From: an uncultured Pseudomonadales bacterium
GTDB taxonomy: Bacteria > Patescibacteriota > Microgenomatia > UBA1400 > PJMF01
DNA length: 64,000 nucleotides
Direction of reading: 5' to 3'
NCBI GenBank assembly: GCA_964406075.1
Contig: CAYOQI010000004.1
Span: forward strand, 57,718 to 121,717
A model generated the notes under the pieces. The model had not been told where the DNA came from. It saw nothing but the letters and a program-made list of their open reading frames with translations, and did not search any database. The position numbers and the translations under genes were made by a program. Numbering within the stretch: the first letter of the stretch is position 1; the number at the start of each line of letters is the position of its first letter. Of this stretch, positions 8,041 through 42,700 are shown one piece after another.

Positions 8041-8817
8041 TTAATACTCAACCCGTCGAGCATACCGGAAGTAACGAACCGGAGAGTTCAAGAATTTACA
8101 GGTGTACAAAATAATATCGGCATCATAATCAGTGATTTCTTCACCTTCTTCACCAGCATAAATCTCATACTCATATCGACGTTTATCCCAGATCACTTCA
8201 AACGTATCCCCAACTTCTAATTTATTGAGGTTAAAAAAGGAATTTTGTCGACGATAGGCGTCTGTCCACTTGAGATATCCAAAGCGGTGAGCCAATAAAA
8301 TCATCGGACCAAGACTCTCTGGAGTAGCAAACTCTGTTTCTCGCCATACACCATGGCGCAAAGAATCTTCTGGCTCCACCGATTCTCCAATTTCAGTACG
8401 AACTCCAATCTTAGGAATGACTAACCAATTTCCATCTGGCAAATTTTCATCTCGAGGAGGGAGAACGATTTCAGAGTACAAAGTTCCCTCAGAATACAGT
8501 CCTCCCAGAGGTGATTCAGGTGTCTTGGCTTCAATTTGGACTCGTTCAACGGGTACAAATTTATAAAATGTATCTGGAAATAAGAATGCTGAAGCTACAA
8601 CGATTGACCCAAACAGTCCAATGGAAGAAATCAAGGAAATCAGATGTTTCCCAATTTTTCTTGGCTGTTTCTTAGGAAGAATAGTAGTTTGCACAGCAGA
8701 CCACATGAGCCACTCTTGGACTCTCTGTTCGCGTTGTCTGGCAAAATTGATCGTTGTATATAGCATATTAACTTGATTATTATAGGATACTTTTCCCGTT
8801 TTGTCCAGATACAACAC
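8041..8817 (-). CDS. Sortase-family transpeptidase with an N-terminal membrane anchor.
   Basis: ILLAHRFGY (LAGHR-like His), then EVGDTFEV, then IILYTCKF (TLxTC catalytic Cys), then a C-terminal conserved Arg (RYARRVEY). A TM helix (ISLISSIGLFGSIVVASAFLF) precedes the catalytic domain. The true start may be an internal Met. Confidence 0.6.
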   Translation of the reverse strand: MLYLDKTGKVSYNNQVNMLYTTINFARQREQRVQEWLMWSAVQTTILPKKQPRKIGKHLISLISSIGLFGSIVVASAFLFPDTFYKFVPVERVQIEAKTPESPLGGLYSEGTLYSEIVLPPRDENLPDGNWLVIPKIGVRTEIGESVEPEDSLRHGVWRETEFATPESLGPMILLAHRFGYLKWTDAYRRQNSFFNLNKLEVGDTFEVIWDKRRYEYEIYAGEEGEEITDYDADIILYTCKFLNSPVRYFRYARRVEY

Positions 8818-8867
8818 ATATAAATAGCCTTGACTTTTTTATAAAGAGCAATGAGAATGATGTCTAT

Positions 8868-9197
8868 ATGACGGAAAAACACCAGCGCTCTGCAGCAACT
8901 ATTGCAATTGAAATAGGTTCAGGCCATCCTGTAACAGAACAAGTAACAAATATTAAGGTTACTTCTGATGACATAACCAGACTTCTGTTGAGAACCTCAT
9001 CAGAAGCAGAACTGCCAAATTTTGACCTTGAAAAAACTGTAACTCAACTTACGGAACTTCAAACTGCACTTCAGCAAGAACAATTCCCAAATGGTCCAGG
9101 AGAAATTGACCCTGAACTCAATACAGCATTGCGTGAACTTTCTTCGTTTTTAAACGGCATCAAACTGATGCAAAAGTTAGCTTCTCGACCAGAATAA
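8868..9197 (+). CDS. Hypothetical protein (109 aa).
   Basis: ORF in an intergenic position, divergent from the sortase gene. No motif recognised. Confidence 0.35.
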   Translation: MTEKHQRSAATIAIEIGSGHPVTEQVTNIKVTSDDITRLLLRTSSEAELPNFDLEKTVTQLTELQTALQQEQFPNGPGEIDPELNTALRELSSFLNGIKLMQKLASRPE

Positions 9198-9303
9198 AAT
9201 TCTCTACTTCATTGATCATTTTTAAAAAAAACATAGATCTTTAGAATTTTTTTAGTTATTACCCACTAGTTTCGTACACGCTTTCCGCTGTTATACTACA
9301 AGT

Positions 9304-11454
9304 ATGCCCAATACCACTCTGGTCACTCTCGAGCTTCGAACAGCGCGCGATGCCACCCATACGCCAGAGGCTGCTGCGCAACTTTTTGCTTCACTTCCCA
9401 ATCCACCTCATGGTTTTTTCAATCAATTCAAATCAGCCCCCTTATGTACATTTGAAATTTTGAATCAAGGTCAGGTGACGTACTTTTTTCTAACAGTTCC
9501 CGAAGATCTGGTGACATACTTTAAAAGCCAGCTTACTTCTAATTACCCTGAAATTTTAATCAAAAACCTCGAGCATAACCCGTTTGAAGAATTATATTCA
9601 GAACTCCCCAAAGCTTTAGGTGAGCTTCGATTAAGTGCGACAAACTACTTCTCGTTAAAAACGTATCAAGAATTCAAAGATATTGATCCTTTGTCTTCGA
9701 TCCTTTCTACCTTAACCCGAGCCATGGAAGGTGATACAGCATTGATTCAATTTCAACTCCGCAAAGATCGAGAAAGATGGAAAAATCATCCTTGGTCGCT
9801 AGTGCACGATGGTATTAAAAAAGCTGATGGTACTTTCTCACCCCACCCCCAAAAATCAGAAATTGAGGCCAAGATTACTCAAACCACGCTACAAACTGGA
9901 ATTCGTATTTTGATTCAAAGTCAAAATCAAACTCAGGCTGATCAGCTCATGATGAGTCTCACTCAGTCATTCCAAAGTGTTGATTCCCAACACAATCGAC
10001 TAACATTGAAGAAACCCGCTTTTTTTAATCGAAAAAAGTTTATAAAACAAACATTAGAGAGAACTTGGGAGCCTCCCAAACAATTTTTATCGCTGTCTGA
10101 ACTGGCAACGCTATACCATCTCCCCAACGTTCAACTCTCAACTGTCAAAAATATTGCCTGGGGAAAAACATTACTCGGTGAACCGCCTGAAAATTTACCA
10201 TTTTTTGAAGTGATACCAGAAGAACAACGGACCGAAGTCAATCTTTTTGGAACTACAGAATTTAAAAATCAAAAACGTATCTTCGGTATTCGTGAACCTG
10301 ATCTACGTCGTCACATGTATGTGATTGGGAAAAGTGGAACTGGAAAATCAACGTTGCTTGCCAACATGATCATCAATGATTTAAAACATGATAAAGGTGT
10401 TGCAGTCGTCGACCCTCATGGAGATTTGATTGAGACCGTCTTGAATTACATCCCTAAGCGACGTATGAACGATGTCATCTTAATCGATCCCACTGACCCA
10501 CATGCCGTAGTGAAGTTAAATCTGTTTGAAGGTGGAACGATGATTCACCGAGAACTCATTGCTTCAGGTATCGTAGCTATTTTTCAAAAACTCTATGCAA
10601 ATTCTTGGGGACCGAGACTCGAGTATATTTTACGAAATACCCTTTTAACTCTGCTGTCTCAAAATGCCAAATTGGAAGACATCCTGAGGATGCTGACTGA
10701 CAAGCGGTATCGTCAAAGAGTGATTGAAAACATGGATGATATGGTTTTGAAAAATTTCTGGGTGGAAGAATTTGAAAAACTACAGGATAAACAACGCACC
10801 GAAGCCATCTCTCCTATTTTGAATAAAGTTGGCCAGTTTGTGACATCTCCTTTGATTCGAAATGTGGTCAATACTAATCAAAGTTCATTTAGTATCGAAG
10901 ATGCCATGAACAACGGTCAGATCATGTTGATCAACCTATCCCAAGGAAAGTTAGGTGAAGATAATACTGCCTTGCTTGGAGCGATGTTGATTACCAAAAT
11001 TCAATTGGCTGCCATGAATCGTGTCTATATTCCTGAAGAAGAGCGTCGAGATTTTCACCTCTATATCGATGAGTTCCAAAACTTTGCTACCTCTAGTTTT
11101 ATCAAAATTTTATCTGAAGCCCGCAAGTATCGATTGAGTTTAATTTTAGCCAACCAATACATCGATCAAATTCCGGATGAAATTAAGGCTGCTATTTTTG
11201 GAAACGTCGGAAGTATGGCCAGTTTCATTCTAGGAGCTCAAGATGCGGAGTGGATGATGAAAGAATTTGGGAATAAATACACCCAAGAAGATTTGGTTTC
11301 TCTTGGACGTTATCAGATCATCGTCAAGCTCATGATTGATAATCACATGAGCCACCCATTTCCAGCAGAAACACTCGGCCTGGCATCATCATTTAATCAG
11401 AACAAGGAAAAGGTTATTCGTGTATCACGAGAACGCTACGCAAGAAAACGGTAG
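9304..11454 (+). CDS. P-loop NTPase of the FtsK/HerA/VirD4-TraG (type IV coupling protein-like) superfamily, predicted soluble.
   Basis: Walker A GKSGTGKSTLLANM followed by VAVVDPHGDL. Walker B HLYIDEFQNFATS. The C-terminal LILANQYIDQIPDEIKAAIFGNVGSMASFILGAQDAEWM resembles the TraG/TraD C-terminal region. No N-terminal TM helices. Confidence 0.6.
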   Translation: MPNTTLVTLELRTARDATHTPEAAAQLFASLPNPPHGFFNQFKSAPLCTFEILNQGQVTYFFLTVPEDLVTYFKSQLTSNYPEILIKNLEHNPFEELYSELPKALGELRLSATNYFSLKTYQEFKDIDPLSSILSTLTRAMEGDTALIQFQLRKDRERWKNHPWSLVHDGIKKADGTFSPHPQKSEIEAKITQTTLQTGIRILIQSQNQTQADQLMMSLTQSFQSVDSQHNRLTLKKPAFFNRKKFIKQTLERTWEPPKQFLSLSELATLYHLPNVQLSTVKNIAWGKTLLGEPPENLPFFEVIPEEQRTEVNLFGTTEFKNQKRIFGIREPDLRRHMYVIGKSGTGKSTLLANMIINDLKHDKGVAVVDPHGDLIETVLNYIPKRRMNDVILIDPTDPHAVVKLNLFEGGTMIHRELIASGIVAIFQKLYANSWGPRLEYILRNTLLTLLSQNAKLEDILRMLTDKRYRQRVIENMDDMVLKNFWVEEFEKLQDKQRTEAISPILNKVGQFVTSPLIRNVVNTNQSSFSIEDAMNNGQIMLINLSQGKLGEDNTALLGAMLITKIQLAAMNRVYIPEEERRDFHLYIDEFQNFATSSFIKILSEARKYRLSLILANQYIDQIPDEIKAAIFGNVGSMASFILGAQDAEWMMKEFGNKYTQEDLVSLGRYQIIVKLMIDNHMSHPFPAETLGLASSFNQNKEKVIRVSRERYARKR

Positions 11455-12564
11455 TTAATTCGGTAGGGGTTCAACTTCTTGGAAACGATATGATTCTCGC
11501 TTGAGTGTATTTACTTGCTGACCAATACCTTCAAAAATCTCCTGCAGATCATTGGCATTCGTGGTTTCATACACTTTTGCAGGATCCGCAATCATTTCTC
11601 CCAATATTTTACTTCCCAACTCAAGCTGGGCTGAATTTAAAAATGATGTATTTCTATAAAATACTCCGAATAATTCATATCCGGCTTCACGCTGGTTTGT
11701 AGCAATCGTAATCGCATTATCTGAACACTCAGTGCCTGCACCCTCAGGGGCATAATTATCTAGTGACGCATAATCAAGTACTTCTCTGCTACACCCAAAA
11801 ATTGTTCCATTCGAACGAACTCCTCGATTCGCGACACCATCTGTAAAAAAGACAATGATATTTTTACGTGGAATAGGTGGTGGATCAGCTTTATCTAATT
11901 CTTCTGATGCTGATAGCATCCCAGCTCCAATATTGGTCAACTGTGTACCTCGTAAAATCTCAACTTCACCCACCCTATTAATAATCGATATTTTATCTGT
12001 ACTTAATTCATGATCAATTCTACCCTCGTTGGCATAACTAATGATGCTGATTCGATCATCTGGACCAAGTTCAATCTCATTTACCATATTTTGAATTGCA
12101 GTTTTTAAGGTATCAATGGTTGAATGCATACTACCTGAACGGTCAATCACAATTGCAATATCTAAAGGTAAATCTGCTGTGGAAGTTTCTTCGGTCACTT
12201 GGTACTGAGCTGTAAAACGCCGCTTGGCATCCCGAAAATTTGATCCGATATCAATATCGTATGTTTCAGATCCAGCATCATAGGTTAAATTTCTGGTAAC
12301 TCTAGTGTCACCAATCATGATTTCATCGGAATATGGATTTTCAGCCGGCCAACCAGGATACGTTCGTAATATTTGAAATGTGTCATACAAACCACCCTCA
12401 ACAGCATAGTACGCTTTTCTGGAATACTGCCCACTCAACGATCGTTCCGATCCAACTCTTGCTAGAAGCAACATACTAAAAAAAGCCAGTTCTAATAACA
12501 ACGCAATCACTAAAACGAGTAGTAGTGTTGACAAGCCTGATTGGTGTGAGAGTTTTTTTTTCAT
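11455..12564 (-). CDS. von Willebrand factor A (VWA/MIDAS) domain protein with an N-terminal hydrophobic anchor. Putative pilus-associated adhesin (TadG/PilY1-like role).
   Basis: MIDAS motif DRSGSM (DxSxS) in IAIVIDRSGSMHSTIDTLK, followed by FFTDGVANRG. N-terminal LSTLLLVLVIALLLELAFF. Adjacent to three prepilin genes. Confidence 0.7.
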   Translation of the reverse strand: MKKKLSHQSGLSTLLLVLVIALLLELAFFSMLLLARVGSERSLSGQYSRKAYYAVEGGLYDTFQILRTYPGWPAENPYSDEIMIGDTRVTRNLTYDAGSETYDIDIGSNFRDAKRRFTAQYQVTEETSTADLPLDIAIVIDRSGSMHSTIDTLKTAIQNMVNEIELGPDDRISIISYANEGRIDHELSTDKISIINRVGEVEILRGTQLTNIGAGMLSASEELDKADPPPIPRKNIIVFFTDGVANRGVRSNGTIFGCSREVLDYASLDNYAPEGAGTECSDNAITIATNQREAGYELFGVFYRNTSFLNSAQLELGSKILGEMIADPAKVYETTNANDLQEIFEGIGQQVNTLKRESYRFQEVEPLPN

Positions 12565-12576
12565 TTGATTTTAAAT

Positions 12577-13104
12577 CTATAAAACGATCTGGTTCCTCAT
12601 CGAGACCACGATCACTTTTTCAATTCTTTCCGGATTTCCTATCGCCATTTCCAATCCAATCCGAATTCTTAAGAGCGACAAAGTTCCTTCATCTTGAAGA
12701 TTCTCAATATCAAAATCTGTCACTCGAATGTTCGATGACAGTAATGTCTTCTCATTTTTCAAAAGTACTCCGTCTTCTACTCTATAGATCGTCGTAATGA
12801 GGACACCTGGTGTCTCTTCTTTTACTACTTCTAAGCTGTCTTCAACTCCCATGTCTGTCACAATTGCCGACTCCCCCCATTGAATTTCTTGGGTTAAATC
12901 ATTGGCTAAAGAAATCATCGAGCTTTGAATAACTTCTTGCCGATCTCCGGTTCTCTGAGAACGAAAGATGTCTGTCACAATCGCTAAAATGGAAGTTATC
13001 AGCACCACAATAATTAGGAGGAAAATAATCAACTCAAACAAGGTAAACCCCGCCTCAAGATCATGGTTCTTTTTATTGTTAACTGTTAACTGGTCGACTG
13101 ACAT
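12577..13104 (-). CDS. Prepilin-type N-terminal cleavage/methylation domain protein (type IV pilin/pseudopilin).
   Basis: Class III signal KKNHDLEAG|FTLFELIIFLLIIVV, with Glu at +5 after the cleavage Gly. Confidence 0.7.
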   Translation of the reverse strand: MSVDQLTVNNKKNHDLEAGFTLFELIIFLLIIVVLITSILAIVTDIFRSQRTGDRQEVIQSSMISLANDLTQEIQWGESAIVTDMGVEDSLEVVKEETPGVLITTIYRVEDGVLLKNEKTLLSSNIRVTDFDIENLQDEGTLSLLRIRIGLEMAIGNPERIEKVIVVSMRNQIVL

Positions 13105-13634
13105 TATTCTTCCCCTTTCTTAATCACATACATTTCATACTCAACCTCTTGGGGAATACCATTAATATTCCAGCTCACTCGTGTAATAAGTCTTAAAGTA
13201 TCGGGATCATCGATAGCATCACTGACACTTTCATCCACAACTTGAAACGTAACCGGATCTCGAACAATGTTTTGAACAAATATTTCGCGAGTGAATTTAT
13301 CTTCCAACACCTCTGTTCCATTCAGTAACTGTAAAAATGGTGAATACTCAGGGTGATATGGCTCATCAGCATCAAAACTGGTACTAAACAACTCCCAATC
13401 GGTGGTAGAACTTGCCAAGTTGTACGCAATTTCCATCCCCTCTTGAGCATGTAAACCTGCTTCTACTCTTTCCCAAGAAGTACGTTGGGAAGAAAATACA
13501 TGTTGAAAAGAGATTATGAAAAAAACAATTAAAGAGATAAAAATCCCCATAGAAATGACAGCTTCCAGCAAGAGATATCCTTGCTCAGAGTGACGCTTAG
13601 AGTGGTTGTGGTACGGTTGTGTCAAGAACGCCAT
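13104..13634 (-). CDS. Prepilin-type pseudopilin.
   Basis: SEQG|YLLLEAVISMGIFISLIVFF prepilin motif with E at +5. Overlaps the upstream pilin ORF by 38 nt, so the start codon is uncertain. Confidence 0.6.
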   Translation of the reverse strand: MAFLTQPYHNHSKRHSEQGYLLLEAVISMGIFISLIVFFIISFQHVFSSQRTSWERVEAGLHAQEGMEIAYNLASSTTDWELFSTSFDADEPYHPEYSPFLQLLNGTEVLEDKFTREIFVQNIVRDPVTFQVVDESVSDAIDDPDTLRLITRVSWNINGIPQEVEYEMYVIKKGEE

Positions 13635-14076
13635 AAGAATTTATACGAATCTGAGTGGTAAAACGGTTTGATTGTAGTTCAAGAGTTAAATCACTTCCCG
13701 GTGGATTTGTTTCTTGCGGGGACAATTCTAGTTGCCCCGTCAATTTCCGAAAAAAAACAAGGTCTGCGGTTGAATTTAATTGAATACCATATTGATAAGA
13801 AATTTGTTTATTTTCAGGCAAAAGCAAGTAGAATCCTGGAGAAACGAATGAGATACCATAACTCTCCCCGTTTTGAGCCACACGTGATTTTTGTTGTGCT
13901 TGCTTGAGCTCAGCCACGATTTTGTCGCGTTCCTTGGTCAATCGTTGGCGCTCTAAAGTTCCAAGTAAATATGGGGTGCTCGCACCAACCACCAACGCAA
14001 TAATTGTCATCACCACAATCAACTCCACTAAAGTGAAACCAGATGAATTCTGATGTTGGGCAGAACGAAAAAACAT
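13597..14076 (-). CDS. Prepilin-type pseudopilin (GspH/FimT-like).
   Basis: NSSG|FTLVELIVVMTIIALVVG is a canonical type IV pilin N-terminus. Confidence 0.7.
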   Translation of the reverse strand: MFFRSAQHQNSSGFTLVELIVVMTIIALVVGASTPYLLGTLERQRLTKERDKIVAELKQAQQKSRVAQNGESYGISFVSPGFYLLLPENKQISYQYGIQLNSTADLVFFRKLTGQLELSPQETNPPGSDLTLELQSNRFTTQIRINSYGVLDTTVPQPL

Positions 14077-14162: not shown

Positions 14163-14189
14163 ATTTGGATTTAGGGTTTAGGAAATTAG

Positions 14190-14261
14190 TGCCGATACCG
14201 GGAGTCGAACCTGGATTTAAGGTTTAGGAAACCTCCGTTCTATCCATTGAACTATATCGGC
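14190..14261 (-). tRNA. tRNA-Arg (anticodon CCT).
   Basis: Manual fold: acceptor GCCGATA/TATCGGC, D-arm GTTC-AATGGATA-GAAC, anticodon arm GAGGT-TTCCTAA-ACCTT, T-arm CCAGG-TTCGACT-CCCGG (one A-C mismatch). 72 nt, CCA not encoded. Confidence 0.7.
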
Positions 14262-14343
14262 TATGAGTATAAAAAATTGTCATCCATAGGCTGCCTGCCC
14301 GCCTTTGGAGGGATCGCCTTTGGCGGAAACTATGGGAGCAGTG

Positions 14344-14415
14344 TCGGGGTGGAGGGAATTGAACCCTCTGCCTCTCGGTCCCGAACCGAGCGCTCTACCG
14401 ATGAGCCACACCCCG
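14344..14415 (-). tRNA. tRNA-Pro (anticodon CGG).
   Basis: Manual fold: acceptor CGGGGTG/CACCCCG, D-arm GCTC-ATCGGTA-GAGC, anticodon arm CTCGG-TTCGGGA-CCGAG (G37), T-arm GAGGG-TTCAATT-CCCTC. 72 nt. Confidence 0.8.
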
Positions 14416-21834: not shown

Positions 21835-22746
21835 TTACTTTTCTCGAGAAGGTTTGACTTCATACCCTCTTCCATCACTGATAATTTCAATGTGTCCATG
21901 TTGGCTTGTTGTGTATATTTTGATATTTCTATATCGAAGTATATCAATTACTCGAGTGTGAGGATGCCCAAAACTATTGTTTTTGCCCACTCCCATCAAT
22001 GCAGTTTCGGGTCTGGATGCCATGATGAATTCCTCATGTGTTGAGTTTTTAGAGCCGTGGTGGGATACTTTTATTACATCGATGTCCTTTATCACATGCT
22101 CTCTTGTTAGTGATAACTCAATCTCACTACTGATGTCACCAGCAGACAGCATCCTGAACTCCCCATATCCCACATAGCCAGATACAGAAAGGTCATTATC
22201 ATTTTTTTTACCTTTGTTTTTTACCATTCGATTTGGGTCTTGTTCTTGTTCGGTCTTTTTAAAAACAGAAATATCTTCTACCTCTGGCCAGATACTTAGA
22301 AAAGTCACGTCCGTTTCTCCATTTTCAATGGTTATTTTCTTTCCTTGAGTAAGTGTATGAGTCTCTATCTGGTATTTTTTTATTATTTCTTCAATTGCTT
22401 TACTGAGTTCTGTGGGCTCCCATGGTGGATTGCGAAAAATAACACCAACTTTATATGAAGTAACTATCGATTTAATCCCCGCAGCATGATCTGCATCATC
22501 ATGCGTTAATACTATTACTTCAATATTCCTGTCCCAAAATGGCATGAATTCCCCAAGACAGTCCAATACAGCGTCACTTGGTCCGGTATCAATCAATAGT
22601 TGATGAAAATGCAGATTGATAAGTATCGCATCTCCTTGGCCGACATCACACATGACCACATGAAGTTTATCATCAGGCCACTTCCACCAAATTAAAAAAA
22701 ACAGAAGTATTAATCCAATCAATAGTACATACAGAGCCTTTTTCAT
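21835..22746 (-). CDS. Membrane-anchored MBL-fold metallo-hydrolase. Corresponds to the C-terminal beta-lactamase domain of ComEC, here encoded as a separate ORF.
   Basis: VMCDVGQGDAILI and VIVLTHDDADHAAG (HxHxDH zinc motif). N-terminal TM helix. Its start overlaps the comEC stop by 4 nt. Confidence 0.75.
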   Translation of the reverse strand: MKKALYVLLIGLILLFFLIWWKWPDDKLHVVMCDVGQGDAILINLHFHQLLIDTGPSDAVLDCLGEFMPFWDRNIEVIVLTHDDADHAAGIKSIVTSYKVGVIFRNPPWEPTELSKAIEEIIKKYQIETHTLTQGKKITIENGETDVTFLSIWPEVEDISVFKKTEQEQDPNRMVKNKGKKNDNDLSVSGYVGYGEFRMLSAGDISSEIELSLTREHVIKDIDVIKVSHHGSKNSTHEEFIMASRPETALMGVGKNNSFGHPHTRVIDILRYRNIKIYTTSQHGHIEIISDGRGYEVKPSREK

Positions 22747-24254
22747 TTTGGTCTTTTATTAAATTGACGATGAAAGTAGAAAATTGAGAAAATTATTAAT
22801 CCATACACAATCACCATTTGCCTCCCAGTTACTGTAAACACCACACTTGCCCATTTTGGACTGCTAAAAATTTCCACCAACTCAAAAAATACAAATAATA
22901 TTGAATCACAGACCAAACCTAGTGCTTTAGCTAAAAAAGGATGGATAAGCCAAGATCCAACGATGATCACGCCAAAAGCCATCAAAATCGGTATAAATAG
23001 TAGTAAGACTGAGTTAGCTACAACTGAAATGAGGCTTAACCGCTCAAAGTGATACACAATTAAAGGAGTGGTGAGTAGTAATGCTGAAATGGTTGCAAAA
23101 AGATTTTCTTTGATGGAGTCAAAAAGGAACTTGCCATTCAATGACGTTGTTTTAAAGTTGAACTTCGCAAAAAATGTTTCAATGAGTGGTGAGATCCAAA
23201 TTAAACCGGCTGTTGCTAAAACTGAAAGTTGAAACGAGATTTCAAAAAGGAACCATGGATTCCATAATAAGAGTATCAAAATGGTTAACCAGAATGCCCA
23301 ACTCGTTTTTTGTTGACGTCCATATAGTTGTGATATGAGAACCACACTAATCATTAATGTCGCTCTGACAATCGGAGCTGTGAGTCCTCCAATAAATGCA
23401 TAGATCCAAATGAAAATGAGTGCAACAATTCTCCGCATTCTAAAACTGAGAAATAACTGAGTAAGCGAAAGAAGACTTGTGCTTACCACCATGACGTTGT
23501 ATCCTGATGCAACCAAAATATGAGTCATACCTACTATTTGGAATTGATCAGCACGATTTTGAGGCAAATTATCGTCGCCTCCAAAAACGACACCATAAAT
23601 AAAAGCTGCATGGGTCGGTAAAAGACTTTCGTTAAAAATTTTTCGTAACCACGTCTTGTTTTTCTCTCTCCAGGCTAAAAAGTGCCCTTCAACATATAAA
23701 CCCGAATCAGCGGAGTGATTTTTAACTTCAATTTCCTTTGAAATCAATCTAATTTGACACACAAATTTTTCTATCATTTGAGGACTATTACTGCCATCCT
23801 CCAACTCAGTATTTGTACTATTCTTACTACCCATTTTTAGCCTGGTACTATCACTACTGGTTGACGTTATTTCACTTGAGCTAATTGAGTGAAATACATT
23901 CTTTTTTTCTTCTACTTGAACTGTAATCAAGAGATCACTCAAAACTGTTGGATTTTCTAAGTCTTCAGAACTTTGTATCTGATACTGAGGAATTGTAAGG
24001 AACATCGCTCCTTTTCTTACGTAATACCCACCATGCTTACTCTGTTTTAGTTCCGAAGTATTTGCAGTAATCACAAAAGTGCTTCCGATTTCCTTTTCAC
24101 GACAGTATTCAGTTAACTGAATTAGGTGCAATAATATAAAAGATGTAATAAGCATCAATATGGATCTAAATGCATACTTTCGTAACGTGCTTCGTCGTCG
24201 TAATTCGTCCGTGAAATGAGTAACTTCTGGAGTTAATTGCCTTGAATGGCTCAT
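22743..24254 (-). CDS. comEC: ComEC/Rec2-family DNA internalisation channel protein (DUF4131 plus Competence domain; no MBL domain in this ORF).
   Basis: N-terminal TM helix, an OB-like soluble region, then about 8 or more TM helices. It lies between comEA and the MBL hydrolase in the same orientation. Confidence 0.6.
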   Translation of the reverse strand: MSHSRQLTPEVTHFTDELRRRSTLRKYAFRSILMLITSFILLHLIQLTEYCREKEIGSTFVITANTSELKQSKHGGYYVRKGAMFLTIPQYQIQSSEDLENPTVLSDLLITVQVEEKKNVFHSISSSEITSTSSDSTRLKMGSKNSTNTELEDGSNSPQMIEKFVCQIRLISKEIEVKNHSADSGLYVEGHFLAWREKNKTWLRKIFNESLLPTHAAFIYGVVFGGDDNLPQNRADQFQIVGMTHILVASGYNVMVVSTSLLSLTQLFLSFRMRRIVALIFIWIYAFIGGLTAPIVRATLMISVVLISQLYGRQQKTSWAFWLTILILLLWNPWFLFEISFQLSVLATAGLIWISPLIETFFAKFNFKTTSLNGKFLFDSIKENLFATISALLLTTPLIVYHFERLSLISVVANSVLLLFIPILMAFGVIIVGSWLIHPFLAKALGLVCDSILFVFFELVEIFSSPKWASVVFTVTGRQMVIVYGLIIFSIFYFHRQFNKRPK

Positions 24255-24865
24255 AAAGAAATCTGGTCTTTAATTTTTTGAAAAATACTTTCAGACAGAA
24301 CTTTCTTAGAAACTAACTCTTCAATCGAAGAATATGGGCGGTTTTCGATAATATTATTCGCTCTCGACTCACCAACACCTTCCAATGTATCAAGTTCCCC
24401 TAGTGTTGCAGAGTTAATACTAATTTTGGAAGAGTTTTTTTGAATAGAGCTCTGACGAGCTGACTCGGAGGAAGATGGAATATAAATTTTCTGTTGATCT
24501 TGAATGACTTCAGCCAAATTGATTTGCTGGGCAATATAAACAGCATCTGCATGAGAATTCCACCCACCAGCAAGTGCAATTGCATCTTTTACTCGACTAC
24601 CTTCAGACAAAGTATATACTCCTGGTTTTTGGACTGCGCCACTTATATCCACTGTTATTTTACTTGTGACTTGAGTGCTTATTTCCTCTTTCACATCTGT
24701 ATCAGTAACAGTAATACTGTCATTCGTTGATCCAACAGCCCTGAGTTGTACAAAACCGAATCCAAATCCGCCTAAGCCAAGCAGGATGAGCAAAAGAGAC
24801 CAGATCGGAGGGAGGGTTGAAAAGAATGAAGAGGACGGATGAACAGAATCACCAGAATCTTCCAT
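24251..24865 (-). CDS. comEA: ComEA DNA receptor (TM anchor, SLBB domain and tandem helix-hairpin-helix).
   Basis: C-terminal SINSATLGELDTLEGVGESRANNIIENRPYSSIEEL is an HhH motif. The SLBB-like VDISGAVQKPGVYTLSEGSRVKDAIALAGG precedes it. N-terminal TM helix. Confidence 0.8.
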   Translation of the reverse strand: MEDSGDSVHPSSSFFSTLPPIWSLLLILLGLGGFGFGFVQLRAVGSTNDSITVTDTDVKEEISTQVTSKITVDISGAVQKPGVYTLSEGSRVKDAIALAGGWNSHADAVYIAQQINLAEVIQDQQKIYIPSSSESARQSSIQKNSSKISINSATLGELDTLEGVGESRANNIIENRPYSSIEELVSKKVLSESIFQKIKDQISL

Positions 24866-36771: not shown

Positions 36772-39700
36772 ATGATTCCCAGTGATCTGCCCCCACTAGT
36801 CTCCATTCATGAAGCTGCAAAGTTTCTTAAAGTTTCGACAAAAACTTTACGTCGTTGGGAAGATCGACACATTTTGTTACCAGCTCGAACTTCTGGCGGA
36901 CACCGAAGATATGATCTCAACGAGATCAAGGCCTTCAAAAAACAAAAGTATTCCAGTGGCTCAGTCGTTCATCAAACAGTACTCCCACTTGCAACAGTTA
37001 AACCACTTGAATCAAAAGTGGTTGACCAAACAGATATTCTTCAAGTTTCCAAACCACTCATCATCAAACCCATTGATCATTTTCCGTTAAAAACACCGAA
37101 AGTAACTGCATACAAGCCATTCCCAGAGACAATTACGAAAGTAAAAAAAACATTTGAGTTTCCTTCATTCCAAGTTAGAAACAACATTCCTCCTCAGGTC
37201 GAAATTCCCACAGAGAAAATAACGGATTTCCCTATTCCAACCACTCCACCTTCTTGGGTGTCTGTCTCAATCGTGTTGGCTTTTTTCTTTATTTCAGCTG
37301 CAGCATTCAGTATTCAAGGTTTCTTCAAGCCTCTAGTTGCAAAACATCCAGTCCTAAGTGAAATTGCGTATTCCCTCGAAAAGAGATTGGCAATAAATGT
37401 TTTTCCTAAAAAAGAAGTGATGATTGTTCAGGCTAACGATAGCAAAGTCTTGGGAGAACACTCCAGCTTAGATTTTTTAAAATTTAATATTAATGTCGAG
37501 TCTTCTTTTCGCGAGTTTGCGAACTTCCTCTCAGATGTCAATGTCGAAGGAAATGCCACGGTCAGTGGAATTTTAAGTGTGAACTCCGGCTCACTTCAAA
37601 CAACTTCTGAAACAGCTCAAGTTTTTGAAAACGCTTCTACTCTCTCAATTGCTGCGAACACTGGCACCACAACAGTGAACAACTCACTAAACGTGGGTGG
37701 AAATTTAACAGTAATTGGTTTGATAAATGATATTGCCGGTACTCTCAATCTTTCCGGTAATACTTTGACTTCAACTGGTGATCTAGTTATTGATCCTGGC
37801 GGAGGTGGTGTTTCGATTGGAGATGCCACTCCAGGAATTATAGATATGACAGATGGAGATTTTTTTGTTTCAGGCGATGTAGAAATTGACGGCATTTTAT
37901 ACGCACCAACTGCAAATATATCAGGCACTGCGAGTATCGGCACTGTCTTGGTGAATTCCGACAGTATCAATGACTTTACTGGAACAGGCTTGACTGTCTC
38001 TGATGGAGCTCTTCAAACCACAATTGGCACATCGGTTTCTTCCTCTGAAATTGAGAATGACACAATTTTGGAAGAAGATCTTAAAGTCTCAAATGATGCG
38101 GTAAATGGTTATGCTCTTACCTATGATAATTCGACCGGCGGATTCACTTGGACAGATATTGCATCCAGTCAAGTTTGGATCGATGGTGGCTCAGTCTACT
38201 ATCAAGCCACGACCACCGATGATGTGGTGATTGGAGGTACTTCCAGCTTGGGTAAACTCTCGGTCGATGGGGATAGTGATGAAATCCAACTCGTAGTTCA
38301 AGGCAATGGGACGCAAACATCAAACATCTTCGTAGTTGAAGACTCCAGTGGGACAGATCTTTTTGTGGTGAACAATACTGGAAGCATCACCATTGCGTCT
38401 GGCCAAGATCTCACCATTGGGTCGATTGGATTGAATGATGTCGGAACAGATAATGTCACTTCTGGAGCATCACTTATCGGAGTGTTTGATGAATTCACTA
38501 ACTCCTCAGCTACGACACTACAAGATGTCCTCGATGATTTTGACGCTGCTATTGGTGGTGGAGCTTCAAAGTGGGCTCAAGATACTGGCTTTGTTTACCT
38601 AGCAAGTACGACTGACGACATCGTTGTCGGTGGTGACACAATAGCTAATGGTTCTTTGTATTTTGATGAATCTGCGGGAAGTCTGTATCTCGGAACTAAT
38701 GAGGCTTTGAACGGCTCACTTACTCTCTACTCTTCAGGAGCAGGGATAACTGACCCTACGATTACCGCAGATGCTACAGGAAATGCGAATATCACTACCT
38801 CTGCCACAGCCTTAGTAAATATATTAGCGGGTAATTTGAAAGTGGGTAATGGCGCGCCCACTCAGACCTTAAATGGTGAAGATGCCTATGTCGAAGGCAC
38901 GCTTGAAGTTGATGGGATACTCTACGCTGGTTCTGCCACTACAGCCTTAACCGTAGCAAGCGGACTGATCGATGCTGATGCAATTGCTTTAACTCCAACC
39001 ACTGAGGGATTAAGTGGTATCTCATCAGGCTCAGGTTTAGCGGTATACAGCGACACACTTTCTCTTCTCCAAGGTTGTGGTGATGGTCAAGTTTTGAAGT
39101 GGAACGAAACAAATGATTCATGGGAATGTGCAAATGATACCGGCGCTTCTTTTGCCGTGGTAAACATTGAGAACAATGATGTTGCAGTCGGGAGCAATGT
39201 CGATTCCATTGATTTCTCTACTGATTTCTTAGTCACTGCTTCCCCATCAAACGAAGCCAATGTTGCAATCGCCGATGACATTTTAAACTTCACAGAATTC
39301 TCTGATGCCCTTACCTTAGATGCCGCTACCACCATCACCAATTCTTTAGCCGGCAACTTGACAATCGACCTCACTTCAACCGGTGATTTCGTCATTGCAG
39401 ATGGTGGAGTTGCCTTCTTTACCTTTACTGATGGTGGTGCTTTAACTCAGGCTGGAAGCGGTCAAATAACCTTGACTGGAAACGTTGATGCTACAAATGG
39501 TCTTGATATAACAGGCGCTTCCCTAACGGTTGGTGGTGCAAATGCCACGATCACCACAGGTGGAGCGTTAACATTGGCATCAACAATTACAGCAGCGACC
39601 GACGAGACCATTAACGGCGTTGATATCAATGCCGGTACCGTTTCAGATGTTGTGAATTTAACTATTAATTCAGGTGGTGACTTAACCATTGGTTCAATCG

Positions 39701-42700
39701 GTTTGAATGATGTGGGTTCAGACAACATCACTTCCGGTGCTTCCTTAGTGGGAGTGTTTGATGAATTCACCAATTCAAGTGCAACAACTGTTCAAGACGT
39801 CTTAGATGATCTCGATGCAGCAATTGGTGCTGGTGCAAGTAAATGGACTGACTCTGGTACTGTTACCTACCTTACTGACACGACTGACAGTATTACGATT
39901 GGGAGTTCAACCGAACTTGGTAAACTTGCAGTCGATGGAGATGCTGATGAAGTTCAGTTATTAGTTCAAGGTAATGGAACCCAGACCAATGCCCTTGCAA
40001 TTTTTGAAGATTCAACAGGTGCTGACCAATTTAGCATTAGTAATACTGGAAACGTGACGTTAGCTGGAGATTTAACAATCAGTGGTGGAAATATTACCTC
40101 TGCAACTACCTTTGATTCCACCGCAACCGTAACAGGAACATTAACAGCAAATGGCACTTTAGATGCCAATGGGATCTTCACACTTGGTGACAATGGCGAA
40201 ACCGGTGCAATTGATACTTCTGATTGGGATATTTCTGCCACCGGTGTACTCACTGGAGTGAGTGGTATTACCACTGATGGTGGATACACTCAATCAGGCG
40301 CGACCGGAAATACATTTTCAGGCAATGTCGATGCAACTTCTGGCCTTGATGTCACAGGTGCTTCTCTGACTGTCGGTGGTGCAAATGCCACGATCACTAC
40401 AGGTGGAGCGTTAACTTTAGCCTCCACAATTACAGCCAACACAGATGAAACAGTGAACGGAGTTGATATTAATGCAGGGACTGTTTCTGATGTGGTGAAT
40501 TTAACAATCAATTCTGGTGGTGACTTAACTATCGGGTCAATCGGACTCAACGATATTGGTTCAGACAACATCACTTCCGGTGCTTCTTTAGTTGGAGTCT
40601 TCGATGAGTTTACTAATTCAGATGGTCTTAATGTACAAGATGTCCTTGATGACTTTGATGCTGCTATTGGTGCAGGTTCTAGTAAATGGACAGACTCTGG
40701 TACTGTTACCTACTTAACTTCTACTACTGATGACTTAGCCGTGGGAGGATCCACTGTCCTGGCTTCCATGTTTGGCATTGATGAATCGGCAGGAAATTTC
40801 TACTTTGGCTATGACAACTCAGTTTCCCCTACCTTCAACTTTGAAGCCTCTGATGGTGATGCTGGTGAATTTGGATTTAATACCAATGACACATTCTTCT
40901 TCTCCAATGCACGAGTGGGTGTCGGAACGACCAATCCTTCAAGGTTATTACATGTAAGTGATTCTTCAGGGTCGCCCGCCATTAGAGTTACTGGTTCAGC
41001 CAGTGGTTCACCGTTTATTGAGTTCGAACAGTCAGGAAATGTTAGAGGTGTTTTTGGTTATGATAATACAACTTCGACCTTGCAACTTGCATATGGAGCG
41101 AATTTTAGTACTACCTTCCTATCACTAAATAGTTCTGGTTCTATGGGTCTTGGAACCTCTGCACCTGACGCCGCATTAGAAATCAATCATGCTACGGGTG
41201 ATAGTTTACGACTTACATACAATGACTCAAATGGTTCCGCTACCAGCTACACAGACTTCTCTCTCGCCTCTGATGGAGATTTAACAATTGATAGTGCTGG
41301 TGGTGCCATAAACCTTGGTGCAAATGATGACCTCAATATCACTGCTTCTACTGACTTAATCTTTGGAGGATCAACCTCTCTTGGTGAATCTACAGGAGCG
41401 GCTGATTCAGGAGCTTTCTTAACTGGTATTTTTGATGAATTTGATAACTCTGCTTCCTCTACAGTACAAGATGTGATTGATGATATTGATGCAGCTATTG
41501 GAAATAGAACATACACTGCTGATAACTACGTGACTGATGGTCAAACTCTGACAGCTTCCATCAATGCCCTTGATATTGCACTTGCCTCTGTTTCAGGCGG
41601 TGCGTACACAGGATGGAGTATTGACGTGGATGATGACGGAGCTGATCCAATTGCAAGTGGAGCTACGCTGAATGTTGATGCTGGAAGTAATGTGTCATTG
41701 ACCTACACAGCTGGTACCAATACGCTTTTAATTGCTGCTACTGATACAAATACTACCTACACAGCTGGGAATGATCTTGATCTTACCGGAACGGTCTTCA
41801 GCCTAGAAACCACCCTCGATTTTGTCGACACAATTAATTTAGCTGGGACAGGAACTCTCAACGGTCTTGATGCCGTTGATGCTACTGGAGAAAATACTAT
41901 TGAGGCCCTGATCTTTGATACAGATGCTGAAAGTATTACCGGAGTCTGGACGGTAGCTGACTCGACCAACTTCAGAATTGGTACCGGTGGTGACTTAACC
42001 TTCGCTCATGATGGTTCAAACTCTACTATTACTAGTACGACGGGTGACTTACTTATCGACAATACAAATGCCACCGGTTCAACCATTTTTGACCTGGGCA
42101 CAGATACTTCAGCCACTGATTTCCTTATTAGGAATGATTCTGGCACTCAACTCTTAAGCTTGAACGGTGCCGGGGCACTTCAGCTTGGAAGCAATGGTCA
42201 AGATGGTCAGTTCATCCTCTACAACGAACTAGGTGTAACAGATTACACAAACACAATTAACCCAAGTGGTTCTCAGTCCCAAAACATCACCTATACCCTA
42301 CCTCCTGATGATGGTGGCGCTGATAATTACGTTCTCACCACGGATGGAAATGGCGTATTGCAATGGGAATCCGTCACTGGTGCCGGTGGAGGAAGTGGAG
42401 ATCTGACAGATATCATTGCTGGGAACTACATTGATGTTCAAAACGCTGGTGGTCCGAGTCCTACTGTAGACTTTGATCCAACCGAACTTGAAGGAGTGAC
42501 TTGGGGTGCCTCATCTGGCGCCAGTGAACCTTTTACCTGGACGTATGATGTGACGAACTCCGGAACTGATCCTTCCATCACTTTCGCGGACAATGCCATC
42601 ACTCTCACAGCAGCAACTCTTACAGCTAGTGGTGATTTAACAATTCAAGGTGGAGACGCAACGCTTGGAATGGCTGGAACCGATGGTTCGCTCACTTTTT

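What the first reader, a model, noticed from the sequence alone, without database searches (positions are those of the whole stretch)
8041..14076. Surface-appendage cluster: three pseudopilins, a VWA/MIDAS adhesin-like protein, a VirD4/TraG-like soluble ATPase and a sortase
- Three consecutive minus-strand ORFs carry canonical class III (prepilin) signal motifs: G|FTLVE, G|YLLLE and G|FTLFE.
- They are followed by a VWA-domain protein with an intact MIDAS (DRSGSM). This is the typical arrangement of minor pilins plus a tip adhesin.
- Divergently upstream lies a 716-aa P-loop ATPase. It has VirD4/TraG-like Walker A/B motifs and C-terminal motifs, but no membrane anchor.
- Next to it sits a membrane-anchored sortase (LAHR, TC, R).

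No PilB/PilC/PilD genes are in the window. A coupling-protein-like ATPase next to pseudopilins hints at a DNA-translocation or uptake role. This fits the comEA/comEC operon at 21835-24865, and fits nucleotide scavenging in a reduced genome. None of the surface proteins in the window carries an obvious LPXTG motif.
Basis: partly seen in the sequence, partly recalled or inferred. Interest (0 to 1): 0.6.

Follow-up and report, generated by a model that had tools for sequence, protein, structure and literature searches.

The report
Pilus tip-adhesin operon beside unrelated genes
In this ultra-small (Patescibacteria) bacterium, four genes encode the tip and adhesin parts of a type IV pilus, while the neighbouring VirD4-like ATPase and sortase are widespread, separately inherited genes, so this is an ordinary neighbourhood and not a new surface or DNA-uptake machine.

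Summary
All the listed genes are real, but they do not form one system.

**Pilus operon (14076 to 11455, minus strand).** Four tightly packed genes encode three prepilin-type minor pilins, the first GspH/FimU-like. The fourth is a PilX-like, membrane-anchored protein carrying a VWA domain with a complete MIDAS site. This looks like the priming and tip-adhesin module of a type IV pilus. It evolves fast: 31-62% identity between relatives whose ATPase is 74-86% identical.

**Sortase.** It has an intact His/Cys/Arg triad and belongs to a Patescibacteria-type family. Its divergent pairing with the ATPase holds only in one clade; a sister clade has UvrD in that position.

No sorting-signal substrate and no PilB/C/D lie in the window. 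This is a new member of known kinds, of low to moderate interest.

The parts
13597..14076 (-). First gene of the pilin operon: a 159-aa prepilin-type minor pilin, GspH/FimU-like (leader MFFRSAQHQNSSG|FTLVE)
   Evidence: N_methyl 1.9e-8 (33.9 bits against 21.2). TIGR02532 passes its cut-off, and TIGR01708 gspH gives 1.7e-11 but stays below its cut-off. Hydrophobic helix confirmed. Orthologues occur in L084 and L092.
13104..13634 (-). Second gene: a 176-aa prepilin-like protein (G|YLLLE). It overlaps the first gene by 38 nt.
   Evidence: Motif and hydrophobic helix. Only a weak ComGE hit (2.1e-4, below cut-off) and no Pfam hit. Orthologue in L092 at 1.6e-32.
12577..13104 (-). Third gene: a 175-aa prepilin-like protein (G|FTLFE). 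It overlaps the second gene by 1 nt.
   Evidence: Motif and helix. Weak HpsC and ComGF hits. N_methyl 12.2 bits, below cut-off. Orthologues in L084 and L092.
11455..12564 (-). Fourth gene: a 369-aa PilX-like protein. It has an N-terminal anchor (QSG|LSTLLLVL, no Glu5), a small beta module, and a VWA domain with a full MIDAS site. It is the putative tip adhesin and starts 12 nt after the third gene.
   Evidence: VWA 1.5e-14. MIDAS residues invariant. The AF2 model shows helix 2-38 and a confident VWA at 134-356. Foldseek top matches are SpaC, S. sanguinis PilB, Mfa5 and PitA. Six of 28 full-length family members hit PF14341 PilX_N, best 7.9e-8.
9304..11454 (+). Neighbour, not part of the pilus module: a 716-aa soluble ATPase made of a DUF8128 domain (about residues 1-300) and a TrwB/VirD4-fold P-loop domain with an all-alpha insert. 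It is convergent with the VWA gene.
8868..9197 (+). 109-aa ORF between sortase and ATPase. It is not conserved and is probably not a functional partner.
   Evidence: No family hit. The same position holds a 320-aa membrane protein in L084, a toxin-antitoxin pair in L085, and only about 290 bp in L092.
8041..8766 (-). Membrane-anchored Patescibacteria-type sortase, 241 aa from the ATG at 8766 (the longest ORF starts at GTG 8817). It is divergent from the ATPase.
   Evidence: PF04203 35.6 bits against 26.6. The AHR[FY]G, LYTCK and FRYAR motifs are conserved in 18 homologues. TM at about residues 45-63. 477 homologues. Class A-F models fall far below their cut-offs.
8779..8807 (-). Promoter-like site (TGGACA-17-TATAAT, 11 of 12) in front of the 8766 start of the sortase
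   Evidence: This is a consensus match only.

Best explanation
The interval holds three independent units that sit side by side in the chromosome of a Patescibacteria (Microgenomates-type) bacterium.

**(A) Pilus operon.** A translationally packed four-gene operon (14076 to 11455, minus strand) encodes the minor-pilin set of a type IV pilus.
- The first gene is a GspH/FimU-like prepilin and the next two are further prepilins.
- The fourth is a PilX/GspK-like protein that lacks Glu5 and carries a VWA/MIDAS domain.
- Inferred mechanism: a prepilin peptidase encoded elsewhere cleaves after the Gly. The four proteins assemble in the membrane into the complex that primes pilus polymerisation and end up at the pilus tip. 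There the MIDAS metal site of the VWA domain binds a ligand on a host cell or surface.
- The fast divergence and patchy presence of the operon fit a host-contact surface under diversifying pressure.

**(B) ATPase.** The 716-aa protein is a member of a family of orphan coupling-protein-like (TrwB/VirD4-fold) P-loop ATPases found across Patescibacteria classes, with an N-terminal DUF8128 domain.
- It is probably a ring translocase acting on nucleic acid or another polymer.
- In other classes it is membrane-anchored, or split into a membrane DUF8128 protein plus an ATPase. In this clade it is soluble.
- It is not a pilus component. Type IV pili use PilB/PilT-type ATPases (established knowledge).

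**(C) Sortase.** It is the Patescibacteria-type housekeeping transpeptidase. Its substrates (LPQ[ST]G-type signals are seen in other Patescibacteria loci) lie outside this window.

The adjacency of A, B and C is inherited gene order within one clade, not a functional cluster.
For: **Shown for the pilus operon.**
- Pilin motifs are unique to this operon in the window and absent from shuffles.
- HMM support for the first pilin is above cut-off.
- Operon packing follows from the ORF coordinates.
- The MIDAS site is complete and invariant.
- The VWA model matches pilus tip adhesins, including the bimodular type IV pilin PilB of S. sanguinis.
- PilX_N is detected in 6 of 28 full-length family members.
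- The same four-gene order occurs in L084 and L092.
- Window against L084: pilins and VWA are 45-62% identical, neighbours 74-86%. In L092 the VWA protein is 31% identical against 74% for the ATPase.

**Shown for the ATPase.**
- Walker motifs are invariant.
- At least 6,403 homologues, with 55-86% identity among the best 120.
- The loci come from many Patescibacteria classes.
- Within 10 kb in 80 loci there is no pilin, VWA, ComEC or ComEA, and only one weak sortase-profile hit, in L029.
- L085 lacks the pilin operon but keeps the surrounding synteny.
- UvrD replaces the sortase in L001, L090, L091 and L025.
- Membrane-anchored and split forms exist elsewhere.
- PMC12102498 reports 5,713 VirD4-like homologues in 2,918 Patescibacteria genomes, only 148 near virB4.

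**Context.** Patescibacteria type IV pili with minor pilins bearing C-terminal adhesin domains and a non-canonical signal peptide are described in PMC11623550.

**Inferred, not shown.** Cleavage by PilD, tip location, the ligand, and the ring-translocase activity.
Against: - No PilB/C/D/M/T and no major pilin are in the window, so pilus assembly cannot be verified here.
- The second and third pilins, and the N-terminus of the window's own VWA protein, do not reach any curated HMM cut-off.
- The pilin-like module of the VWA model has low confidence, with pLDDT below 50 for residues 35-129.
- The block pilins | ATPase | sortase is retained in three genomes down to 74% ATPase identity. The sortase-ATPase pair is retained down to 56%. 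A functional link within this clade is therefore not excluded.
- The function of the ATPase is unknown. DNA-metabolism genes recur near it in other lineages: TopA in 14 and DprA in 11 of the 80 representative loci; UvrD at five distinct places (L025, L047 and L061 among the 80, plus L090, L091 and the three copies of one place L001-L003); RadA in the two extra loci L088 and L089. This keeps a nucleic-acid role open.
Confidence: 0.7

Rival explanations
1. One reading: pseudopilins, the VWA adhesin, the coupling-protein-like ATPase and the sortase form one surface appendage. The ATPase drives DNA translocation or uptake together with ComEA/ComEC.
For: - The block is retained in the window, L084 and L092.
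- The ATPase has the fold of DNA-coupling proteins.
- comEA and comEC lie about 10 kb away.
- DprA, TopA, UvrD or RadA neighbour the ATPase in some other lineages.
Against: - The orientation is convergent, with abutting stop codons.
- None of 80 other loci has a pilin, VWA protein, ComEC or ComEA within 10 kb, and only one (L029) has a weak sortase-profile hit.
- L085 keeps the ATPase and the ComEC synteny without the pilins.
- Type IV filaments are powered by PilB/GspE-type ATPases, not the FtsK-HerA-T4CP type (established knowledge).
- In S. epibionticum, loss of ComEC abolishes competence without affecting viability. A survey reports that its t4cp homologue is not essential; whether that homologue belongs to this DUF8128 family was not checked.
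Confidence: 0.07
2. The four-gene operon encodes the minor pilins of a competence (Com-type) pseudopilus used for DNA uptake, not an adhesive type IV pilus.
For: - Weak NCBIfam hits to ComGD, ComGE and ComGF.
- The comEA-comEC operon lies in the same window.
- Patescibacteria are naturally competent and depend on scavenged nucleotides.
Against: - All Com hits are far below their cut-offs: 22.8 against 70, 21.3 against 49, 19.6 against 80.
- No ComGA or ComGB lies nearby.
- A VWA/MIDAS module is typical of adhesins and, to my knowledge, is not known in Com pseudopili.
- In N. lyticus TM7x, mutants of the T4P-2 pilins transformed normally.
Confidence: 0.13
3. The sortase and the DUF8128 ATPase are a functional pair sharing a divergent promoter region, for instance in the export and anchoring of surface proteins.
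For: - The divergent pair is kept while both outer flanks change. It is seen in the window, L084, L085, L088, L089 and L092, at ATPase identities of 56-86%.
- About 15 contigs, some only 2.9-3.8 kb long, appear to carry both genes, judged from matching contig lengths.
Against: - No convincing sortase lies near the ATPase in 80 representative genomes; the single hit, in L029, is weak at E 4.5e-5.
- UvrD takes the divergent position in a sister clade with 63-66% ATPase identity.
- Sortases act outside the membrane on Sec-exported proteins and need no cytoplasmic ATPase (established knowledge).
Confidence: 0.07
4. The ATPase is a HerA/DndH/MADS-type defence ATPase, and the neighbourhood is a defence or mobile island.
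Against: - No methylase, nuclease or other mad, dnd or dpt genes lie nearby.
- The family is found across Patescibacteria classes and its best 120 members are 55-86% identical to the window protein. Its neighbours are housekeeping genes.
- Composition is flat across the region, at GC 0.395-0.397.
Confidence: 0.03

Closest known systems
Core minor pilins of type IVa pili and type II secretion pseudopili (FimU/GspH, PilV/GspI, PilW/GspJ, PilX/GspK, with PilY1 as tip adhesin)
   Same: - Four consecutive genes.
- The first is GspH-like.
- Three have a Gly|F/Y-x-L-x-Glu5 signal.
- The last is PilX_N-type without Glu5, as in GspK and PilX.
- An adhesin module is associated with the set.
   Different: - The adhesin (VWA) is fused to the PilX-like protein and is not a separate PilY1.
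- The second and third genes cannot be assigned to PilV or PilW by any curated model.
- No machinery genes or major pilin are adjacent.
- The host is a monoderm, so there is no secretin.
PilB of Streptococcus sanguinis (PDB 7B7P, 7BA2), a bimodular type IV minor pilin with a vWA module
   Same: - A pilin-type N-terminus followed by a VWA domain with MIDAS.
- Foldseek E 7e-12 over 378-399 alignment columns.
- Monoderm host.
   Different: - Only 12-14% identity.
- The window protein has a PilX_N-type, Glu5-less N-terminus.
- Its pilin-like module is modelled with low confidence.
PilX1 and PilX2 of Nanosynbacter lyticus TM7x (Saccharibacteria type IV pili; PMC11623550)
   Same: - Patescibacterial minor pilins, the largest in their loci.
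- A non-canonical signal peptide.
- An extra C-terminal binding domain proposed to be the tip adhesin.
   Different: Their extra domains are a beta-jelly-roll and a beta-propeller, not VWA. No sequence relationship was tested here.
Type IV coupling proteins TrwB, VirD4 and DotL, and the orphan VirD4-like homologues of Patescibacteria (PMC12102498)
   Same: - A nucleotide-binding domain plus an all-alpha insert.
- Pfam TrwB_AAD_bind is above its cut-off.
- It is encoded away from any virB4, like most of the 5,713 reported homologues.
   Different: - No N-terminal transmembrane domain in this clade.
- A 300-aa DUF8128 domain takes its place.
- No relaxase or T4SS genes lie nearby.
- All curated coupling-protein equivalog models are far below cut-off (34.8 against 250).
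- It behaves as a conserved core gene, not a mobile-element gene.
Sortases of Gram-positive bacteria (classes A-F)
   Same: - The PF04203 domain covers the whole model.
- N-terminal membrane anchor.
- Conserved His, Cys (TLxTC-like YTCK) and Arg.
   Different: - Class D and E models score 13-26 bits against cut-offs of 140-165, so it fits none of the class models that gave any hit (D and E).
- It forms a Patescibacteria family of its own, with 477 hits.
- No substrate is encoded in the window.

Membership tests
Type IV pilin / pseudopilin (class III signal peptide) | Short polar leader ending in Gly, then a hydrophobic residue, with Glu at position +5 | tested here: met
   G|FTLVE, G|YLLLE and G|FTLFE in the three ORFs. 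Three motif-plus-helix sites observed, none in 100 shuffles.
Type IV pilin / pseudopilin (class III signal peptide) | About 20 hydrophobic residues (alpha1-N) directly after the cleavage site | tested here: met
   Kyte-Doolittle 19-residue maxima of 2.6-3.5 at residues 14-25 of each protein.
Type IV pilin / pseudopilin (class III signal peptide) | N_methyl (PF07963) or TIGR02532 above the curated cut-off | tested here: inconclusive
   Met for the 159-aa protein (33.9 against 21.2; 25.3 against 16.3). The 175-aa protein scores 12.2 bits, below cut-off. The 176-aa protein gives no hit.
Type IV pilin / pseudopilin (class III signal peptide) | Prepilin peptidase (PilD) and assembly ATPase and platform (PilB, PilC) in the same genome | not testable with these tools
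   None in the 64-kb window. The rest of the genome could not be fetched. Literature says the machinery is widespread in Patescibacteria.
PilX-like minor pilin (PF14341 PilX_N) | PilX_N N-terminal domain | tested here: inconclusive
   The window protein itself gives no hit. Six of 28 full-length family members hit PilX_N, best 7.9e-8. The Q-x-G-x-S-T-L-L and AAEG motifs are shared across the family.
VWA domain with MIDAS | VWA HMM above cut-off, and the DxSxS...T...D metal site | tested here: met
   PF00092 scores 55.1 bits against 23.8. D141, S143, S145 and D242 are invariant in both alignments; T210 is invariant among the 13 sequences and at least 90% conserved among the 28. The domain is modelled confidently.
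Sortase-assembled pilus tip adhesin (SpaC, RrgA, PitA type) | C-terminal LPXTG-like sorting signal with a hydrophobic stretch and a basic tail | tested here: not met
   The VWA protein ends ...FQEVEPLPN with no hydrophobic tail. Only the VWA fold is shared.
Type IV coupling protein (VirD4, TrwB, TraD, TraG) | P-loop nucleotide-binding domain with Walker A and B, plus the all-alpha domain | tested here: met
Type IV coupling protein (VirD4, TrwB, TraD, TraG) | N-terminal transmembrane domain | tested here: not met
   No segment exceeds Kyte-Doolittle 1.4. None of the 120 closest homologues has one. Other Patescibacteria classes do have one.
Type IV coupling protein (VirD4, TrwB, TraD, TraG) | Encoded with a relaxase or a VirB4-type T4SS | tested here: not met
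   No such gene among the window ORFs that were scanned. Neighbours of homologues are housekeeping genes. Literature: only 148 of 5,713 lie near virB4.
Type IV coupling protein (VirD4, TrwB, TraD, TraG) | Curated equivalog models (NCBIfam conju_CD1115, TraD) | tested here: not met
   34.8 bits against 250, and 30.6 against 366.
FtsK/SpoIIIE and HerA | Family HMMs above cut-off | tested here: not met
Sortase (PF04203) | Sortase domain above cut-off, catalytic His, Cys and Arg, and a membrane anchor | tested here: met
   35.6 bits against 26.6, covering positions 1-124 of 125 in the model. AHR, YTCK and RYAR are conserved in 18 homologues. TM at residues 45-63.
Sortase classes A-F | Class-specific NCBIfam model above cut-off | tested here: not met
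   Class D scores 25.8 against 165, SrtD 22.3 against 140, class E 12.9 against 160.
Competence pseudopilus (ComGC-ComGG) | ComG equivalog models above cut-off, and adjacent ComGA and ComGB | tested here: not met
   All ComG hits are below their cut-offs. No GspE-type ATPase or platform gene lies in the window.

The most novel reading that the evidence does not exclude
The DUF8128 coupling-protein-like ATPase is present across Patescibacteria classes and is repeatedly found next to dprA-topA, uvrD or radA. It could be the cytoplasmic motor that pulls in or processes host-derived nucleic acid (DNA through ComEC, or RNA). In this clade it would have lost its membrane anchor and would work with a so far unknown membrane partner. 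The retained block with the sortase and the pilus-tip operon would then reflect a host-contact and uptake neighbourhood.
Probability: 0.08. Interest if true: 0.8.

Novelty: new member of a known kind. Interest (0 to 1): 0.3.

Why it matters
The operon adds a VWA/MIDAS-bearing, PilX-type tip pilin to the known repertoire of Patescibacteria type IV pili. These pili mediate attachment to host bacteria. The operon's rapid divergence marks it as a candidate host-specificity determinant.

The main value of the re-examination is negative. The apparent "pilus + coupling ATPase + sortase" machine is a juxtaposition, so it should not be annotated as a DNA-uptake or secretion system.

The DUF8128 coupling-protein-like ATPase remains an uncharacterised gene found across the phylum's classes. 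Its alternative forms (membrane-anchored, split, soluble) and its recurrent DNA-metabolism neighbours give concrete starting points for experiments in the culturable Saccharibacteria.

Tried and rejected
- **Exact look-up of the window's ATPase** to fetch more of the source contig: not on record. The cluster look-up gave no accession or organism name. The rest of the genome could therefore not be searched for PilB/C/D or for sortase substrates.
- **Single-sequence searches of pilins, VWA, sortase and orf109** against ORFs of 83 loci (the 80 representative ATPase loci plus L001-L003) found nothing. A sortase profile found only a weak hit in L029. This was used as evidence of no linkage.
- **Word-index search with the VWA protein** found one full-length homologue only. 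The exhaustive search was needed to reveal the family.
- **Metagenome scan with the broad alignment** failed for lack of conserved stretches. The narrower alignment gave one true full-length locus, L092. The three other long alignments (L129, L131, L141, 22-24% identity) fall inside a 2,017-aa ORF, and the remaining hits share only the VWA domain.
- **Defence-system reading** (PADLOC mad8, DndH-like fold): considered and rejected on distribution and context.
- **Sortase-dependent pilus reading:** rejected because no sorting signal is present.
- **The 1,358-aa gene next to the sortase in L085** is a polytopic membrane protein, not a substrate.

Full report
**What is in the interval.** The window is a low-GC (about 0.39) chromosome segment. 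It carries aminoacyl-tRNA synthetases, an F-type ATP synthase, comEA/comEC, glycosyltransferases and two giant surface proteins. Homologues of its genes come almost only from Patescibacteria (CPR) assemblies. Between 8041 and 14076 the ORF map reads as follows:
- sortase, 8041-8817 on the minus strand, with a likely start at 8766;
- a 109-aa ORF, 8868-9197 (+);
- a 716-aa ATPase, 9304-11454 (+);
- a 369-aa VWA protein, 11455-12564 (-);
- three ORFs of 175, 176 and 159 aa, at 12577-13104, 13104-13634 and 13597-14076 (all -).

The four minus-strand genes overlap by 38 and 1 nt or are 12 nt apart, so they form one operon read from 14076 down to 11455. The ATPase is therefore downstream of that operon and convergent with it, with abutting stop codons. 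It is divergent only from the sortase.

**Check of the observation.**
- The motifs G|FTLVE, G|YLLLE and G|FTLFE are present. Each is followed by a strongly hydrophobic helix.
- A six-frame scan of the whole window finds three motif-plus-helix sites, all in this operon. None appeared in 100 shuffles.
- The 159-aa protein passes N_methyl (33.9 bits against 21.2) and TIGR02532. It resembles GspH at 1.7e-11, below that model's cut-off. The other two give only weak ComGE, ComGF and HpsC hits.
- The VWA domain scores 1.5e-14. The MIDAS residues D141, S143, S145 and D242 are invariant in homologues and T210 is invariant or nearly so.
- The ATPase hits TrwB_AAD_bind (1.1e-12) and DUF87. FtsK is below its cut-off. 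Walker A and B are invariant in 25 homologues. No hydrophobic segment exists.
- The sortase passes PF04203. It has a TM anchor and conserved AHR, YTCK and RYAR motifs.
- None of the Pfam-scanned ORFs in the window is a PilB, PilC or PilD. No C-terminal sorting signal occurs in the window.

**The pilin operon.** The exhaustive search with the VWA protein shows a family of 360-460-aa proteins that align from residue 1 to the end.
- They share an N-terminal Q-x-G-x-S-T-L-L-hydrophobic helix without Glu5, an AAEG motif, a small beta module and the VWA domain.
- Six of 28 members hit Pfam PilX_N, best 7.9e-8.
- The AF2 model of the window protein has a long N-terminal helix (2-38), a poorly predicted beta region, and a confident VWA domain.
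- Its best PDB matches are pilus tip adhesins: SpaC, S. sanguinis PilB (a type IV pilin with a vWA module), Mfa5 and PitA.
- The order is a GspH-like pilin, two prepilins, then a Glu5-less PilX-type protein. This resembles the core minor-pilin sets that prime type IV pili and end up at the tip (established knowledge).
- In Saccharibacteria, PilX-type pilins with extra C-terminal binding domains and non-canonical signal peptides are the proposed adhesins (PMC11623550).

The operon evolves quickly. Against the closest relative (L084), the pilins and VWA are 45-62% identical, while the ATPase, flippase and sortase are 74-86%. In L092 the VWA protein is 31% identical where the ATPase is 74%. I infer a host- or surface-binding tip complex. 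Cleavage by PilD, tip location and the ligand are not shown.

**The ATPase.**
- Homologues carry PF26449 (DUF8128) in front of the ATPase domain.
- The family is very large and conserved: at least 6,403 hits in a capped search, with 55-86% identity among the best 120. The 80 loci fetched from species-representative genomes span Microgenomates, Saccharibacteria, Dojkabacteria, Peregrinibacteria, Gracilibacteria and Parcubacteria groups.
- In those 80 loci, within up to 10 kb on each side, there is no prepilin motif, VWA homologue, ComEC or ComEA, and only one weak sortase-profile hit, in L029.
- Recurrent neighbours are a sigma/HARE-HTH-like protein (31 loci), SecDF, TopA (14) and DprA (11). 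UvrD recurs at five distinct places: three of the 80 loci plus L090, L091 and the L001-L003 copies of one place. RadA lies next to the ATPase in the two extra loci L088 and L089.
- In Saccharibacteria, Dojkabacteria and Peregrinibacteria, one or two TM helices precede the DUF8128 domain.
- In 23 Parcubacteria-type loci, a TM-DUF8128 protein and the ATPase are separate adjacent genes.
- In the window's clade the protein is soluble.
- A published survey counted 5,713 VirD4-like homologues in 2,918 Patescibacteria genomes, only 148 near virB4. It notes that the S. epibionticum homologue was not essential and may have been exapted (PMC12102498). Whether that homologue belongs to the DUF8128 family was not checked here.
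- The protein is thus a known kind of orphan coupling-protein-like ATPase with unknown function.

**Is the cluster a unit?** Three genomes keep the block pilins-VWA | ATPase | sortase: the window, L084 and L092. L085 (ATPase 71% identical) keeps the sortase, the ATPase and the downstream NDK-M16-Wzy-ComEC-ComEA-LeuRS synteny. It has no pilin operon. L088 and L089 (56%) keep the divergent sortase-ATPase pair, with RadA where the pilins would be. A sister clade (63-66%) has UvrD divergent from the ATPase.

The picture is nested synteny by descent. The pilus operon is an insertion or loss at one side of a conserved ATPase. The VWA protein has no sorting signal, so the sortase does not act on it. 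LPQ[ST]G-type signals do exist in other Patescibacteria loci.

**Rivals.**
- A single appendage or DNA-uptake machine is unlikely for the reasons above.
- A Com-type pseudopilus is possible but not favoured. All ComG hits are below cut-off, no ComGA or ComGB is present, and the VWA module points to adhesion.
- A functional sortase-ATPase pair cannot be excluded within the clade, but it lacks support outside it.
- A defence role is contradicted by the distribution and the context, despite PADLOC mad8 at 1.3e-18 and the DndH-like fold.

**Verdict.** The interval contains a type IV pilus minor-pilin and tip-adhesin operon with a PilX-VWA fusion, which is a new member of a known kind. Beside it lie an orphan coupling-protein-like ATPase of a family found across Patescibacteria classes and a Patescibacteria-type sortase. 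Interest is low to moderate. The residual open question is what the DUF8128 ATPase does.

Noticed in passing
window 36772-52173 (+) and 52448-59968 (+): Two giant ORFs. The 5,133-aa protein has only one Pfam hit, an N-terminal MerR/HTH_17 DNA-binding domain, which is odd for a protein of that size. The 2,506-aa protein has a signal anchor and eight Laminin_G_3/ConA-like lectin stretches. GC rises to 0.43-0.46 across them, against 0.39 elsewhere.
   Followed up: partly
window 21835-22746 (-) and 22743-24254 (-): ComEC appears split into two overlapping ORFs. One holds the Competence (channel) domain and the other the metallo-beta-lactamase domain. They lie downstream of comEA at 24251-24865.
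   Followed up: no
L026-L049 (N-termini), and L039-L083 such as L083:5664-6977 and L059:9833-11221: The DUF8128 coupling-protein-like ATPase exists in three architectures: TM-anchored and fused (Saccharibacteria, Dojkabacteria, Peregrinibacteria), split into a TM-DUF8128 gene plus an ATPase gene (23 Parcubacteria-type loci), and soluble and fused (the window's clade).
   Followed up: partly
31 of the 80 loci fetched, for example L040:8626-9717 and L035:516-1547: A protein of about 363 aa lies upstream of the ATPase on the same strand in many lineages. It has a sigma-70 region-4-like HTH and HARE-HTH-like repeats, as judged from reading the sequence. TopA (14 of the 80 loci) and DprA (11) also recur nearby, as does UvrD at five distinct places.
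   Followed up: partly
L084:12172-12555: In the closest relative, a 23S rRNA intervening-sequence protein gene (PF05635) is inserted between the ATPase and the VWA gene. In the window those two genes abut.
   Followed up: no
L014:13464-14225, L022:414-1097, L050:2570-4765: Secreted proteins of other Patescibacteria carry LPQSG, LPQTG or PPKTG followed by a hydrophobic stretch and a basic tail. These are likely substrates of the Patescibacteria sortase family. None is present in the window.
   Followed up: partly
window 9304-11454: The ATPase scores higher against the PADLOC model mad8 of the MADS defence system (65.6 bits, 1.3e-18) than against any Pfam coupling-protein model. No partner defence genes are nearby.
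   Followed up: partly
record titles of L005, L006, L008, L013, L014, L016, L053, L069 and others: Several contigs that carry this Patescibacteria-type ATPase are labelled in their records as Gammaproteobacteria, Pseudomonadales, Nevskiaceae, Bdellovibrionales or Planctomycetota MAGs. This is probably mislabelling or mis-binning.
   Followed up: no
window 14189-14261 and 14343-14415 (-): tRNA-Arg(CCT) and tRNA-Pro(CGG) lie directly upstream of the pilin operon, between it and ndk. The operon is missing at the corresponding place in L085. tRNA genes are common insertion points, so this may be relevant to the operon's gain or loss.
   Followed up: no
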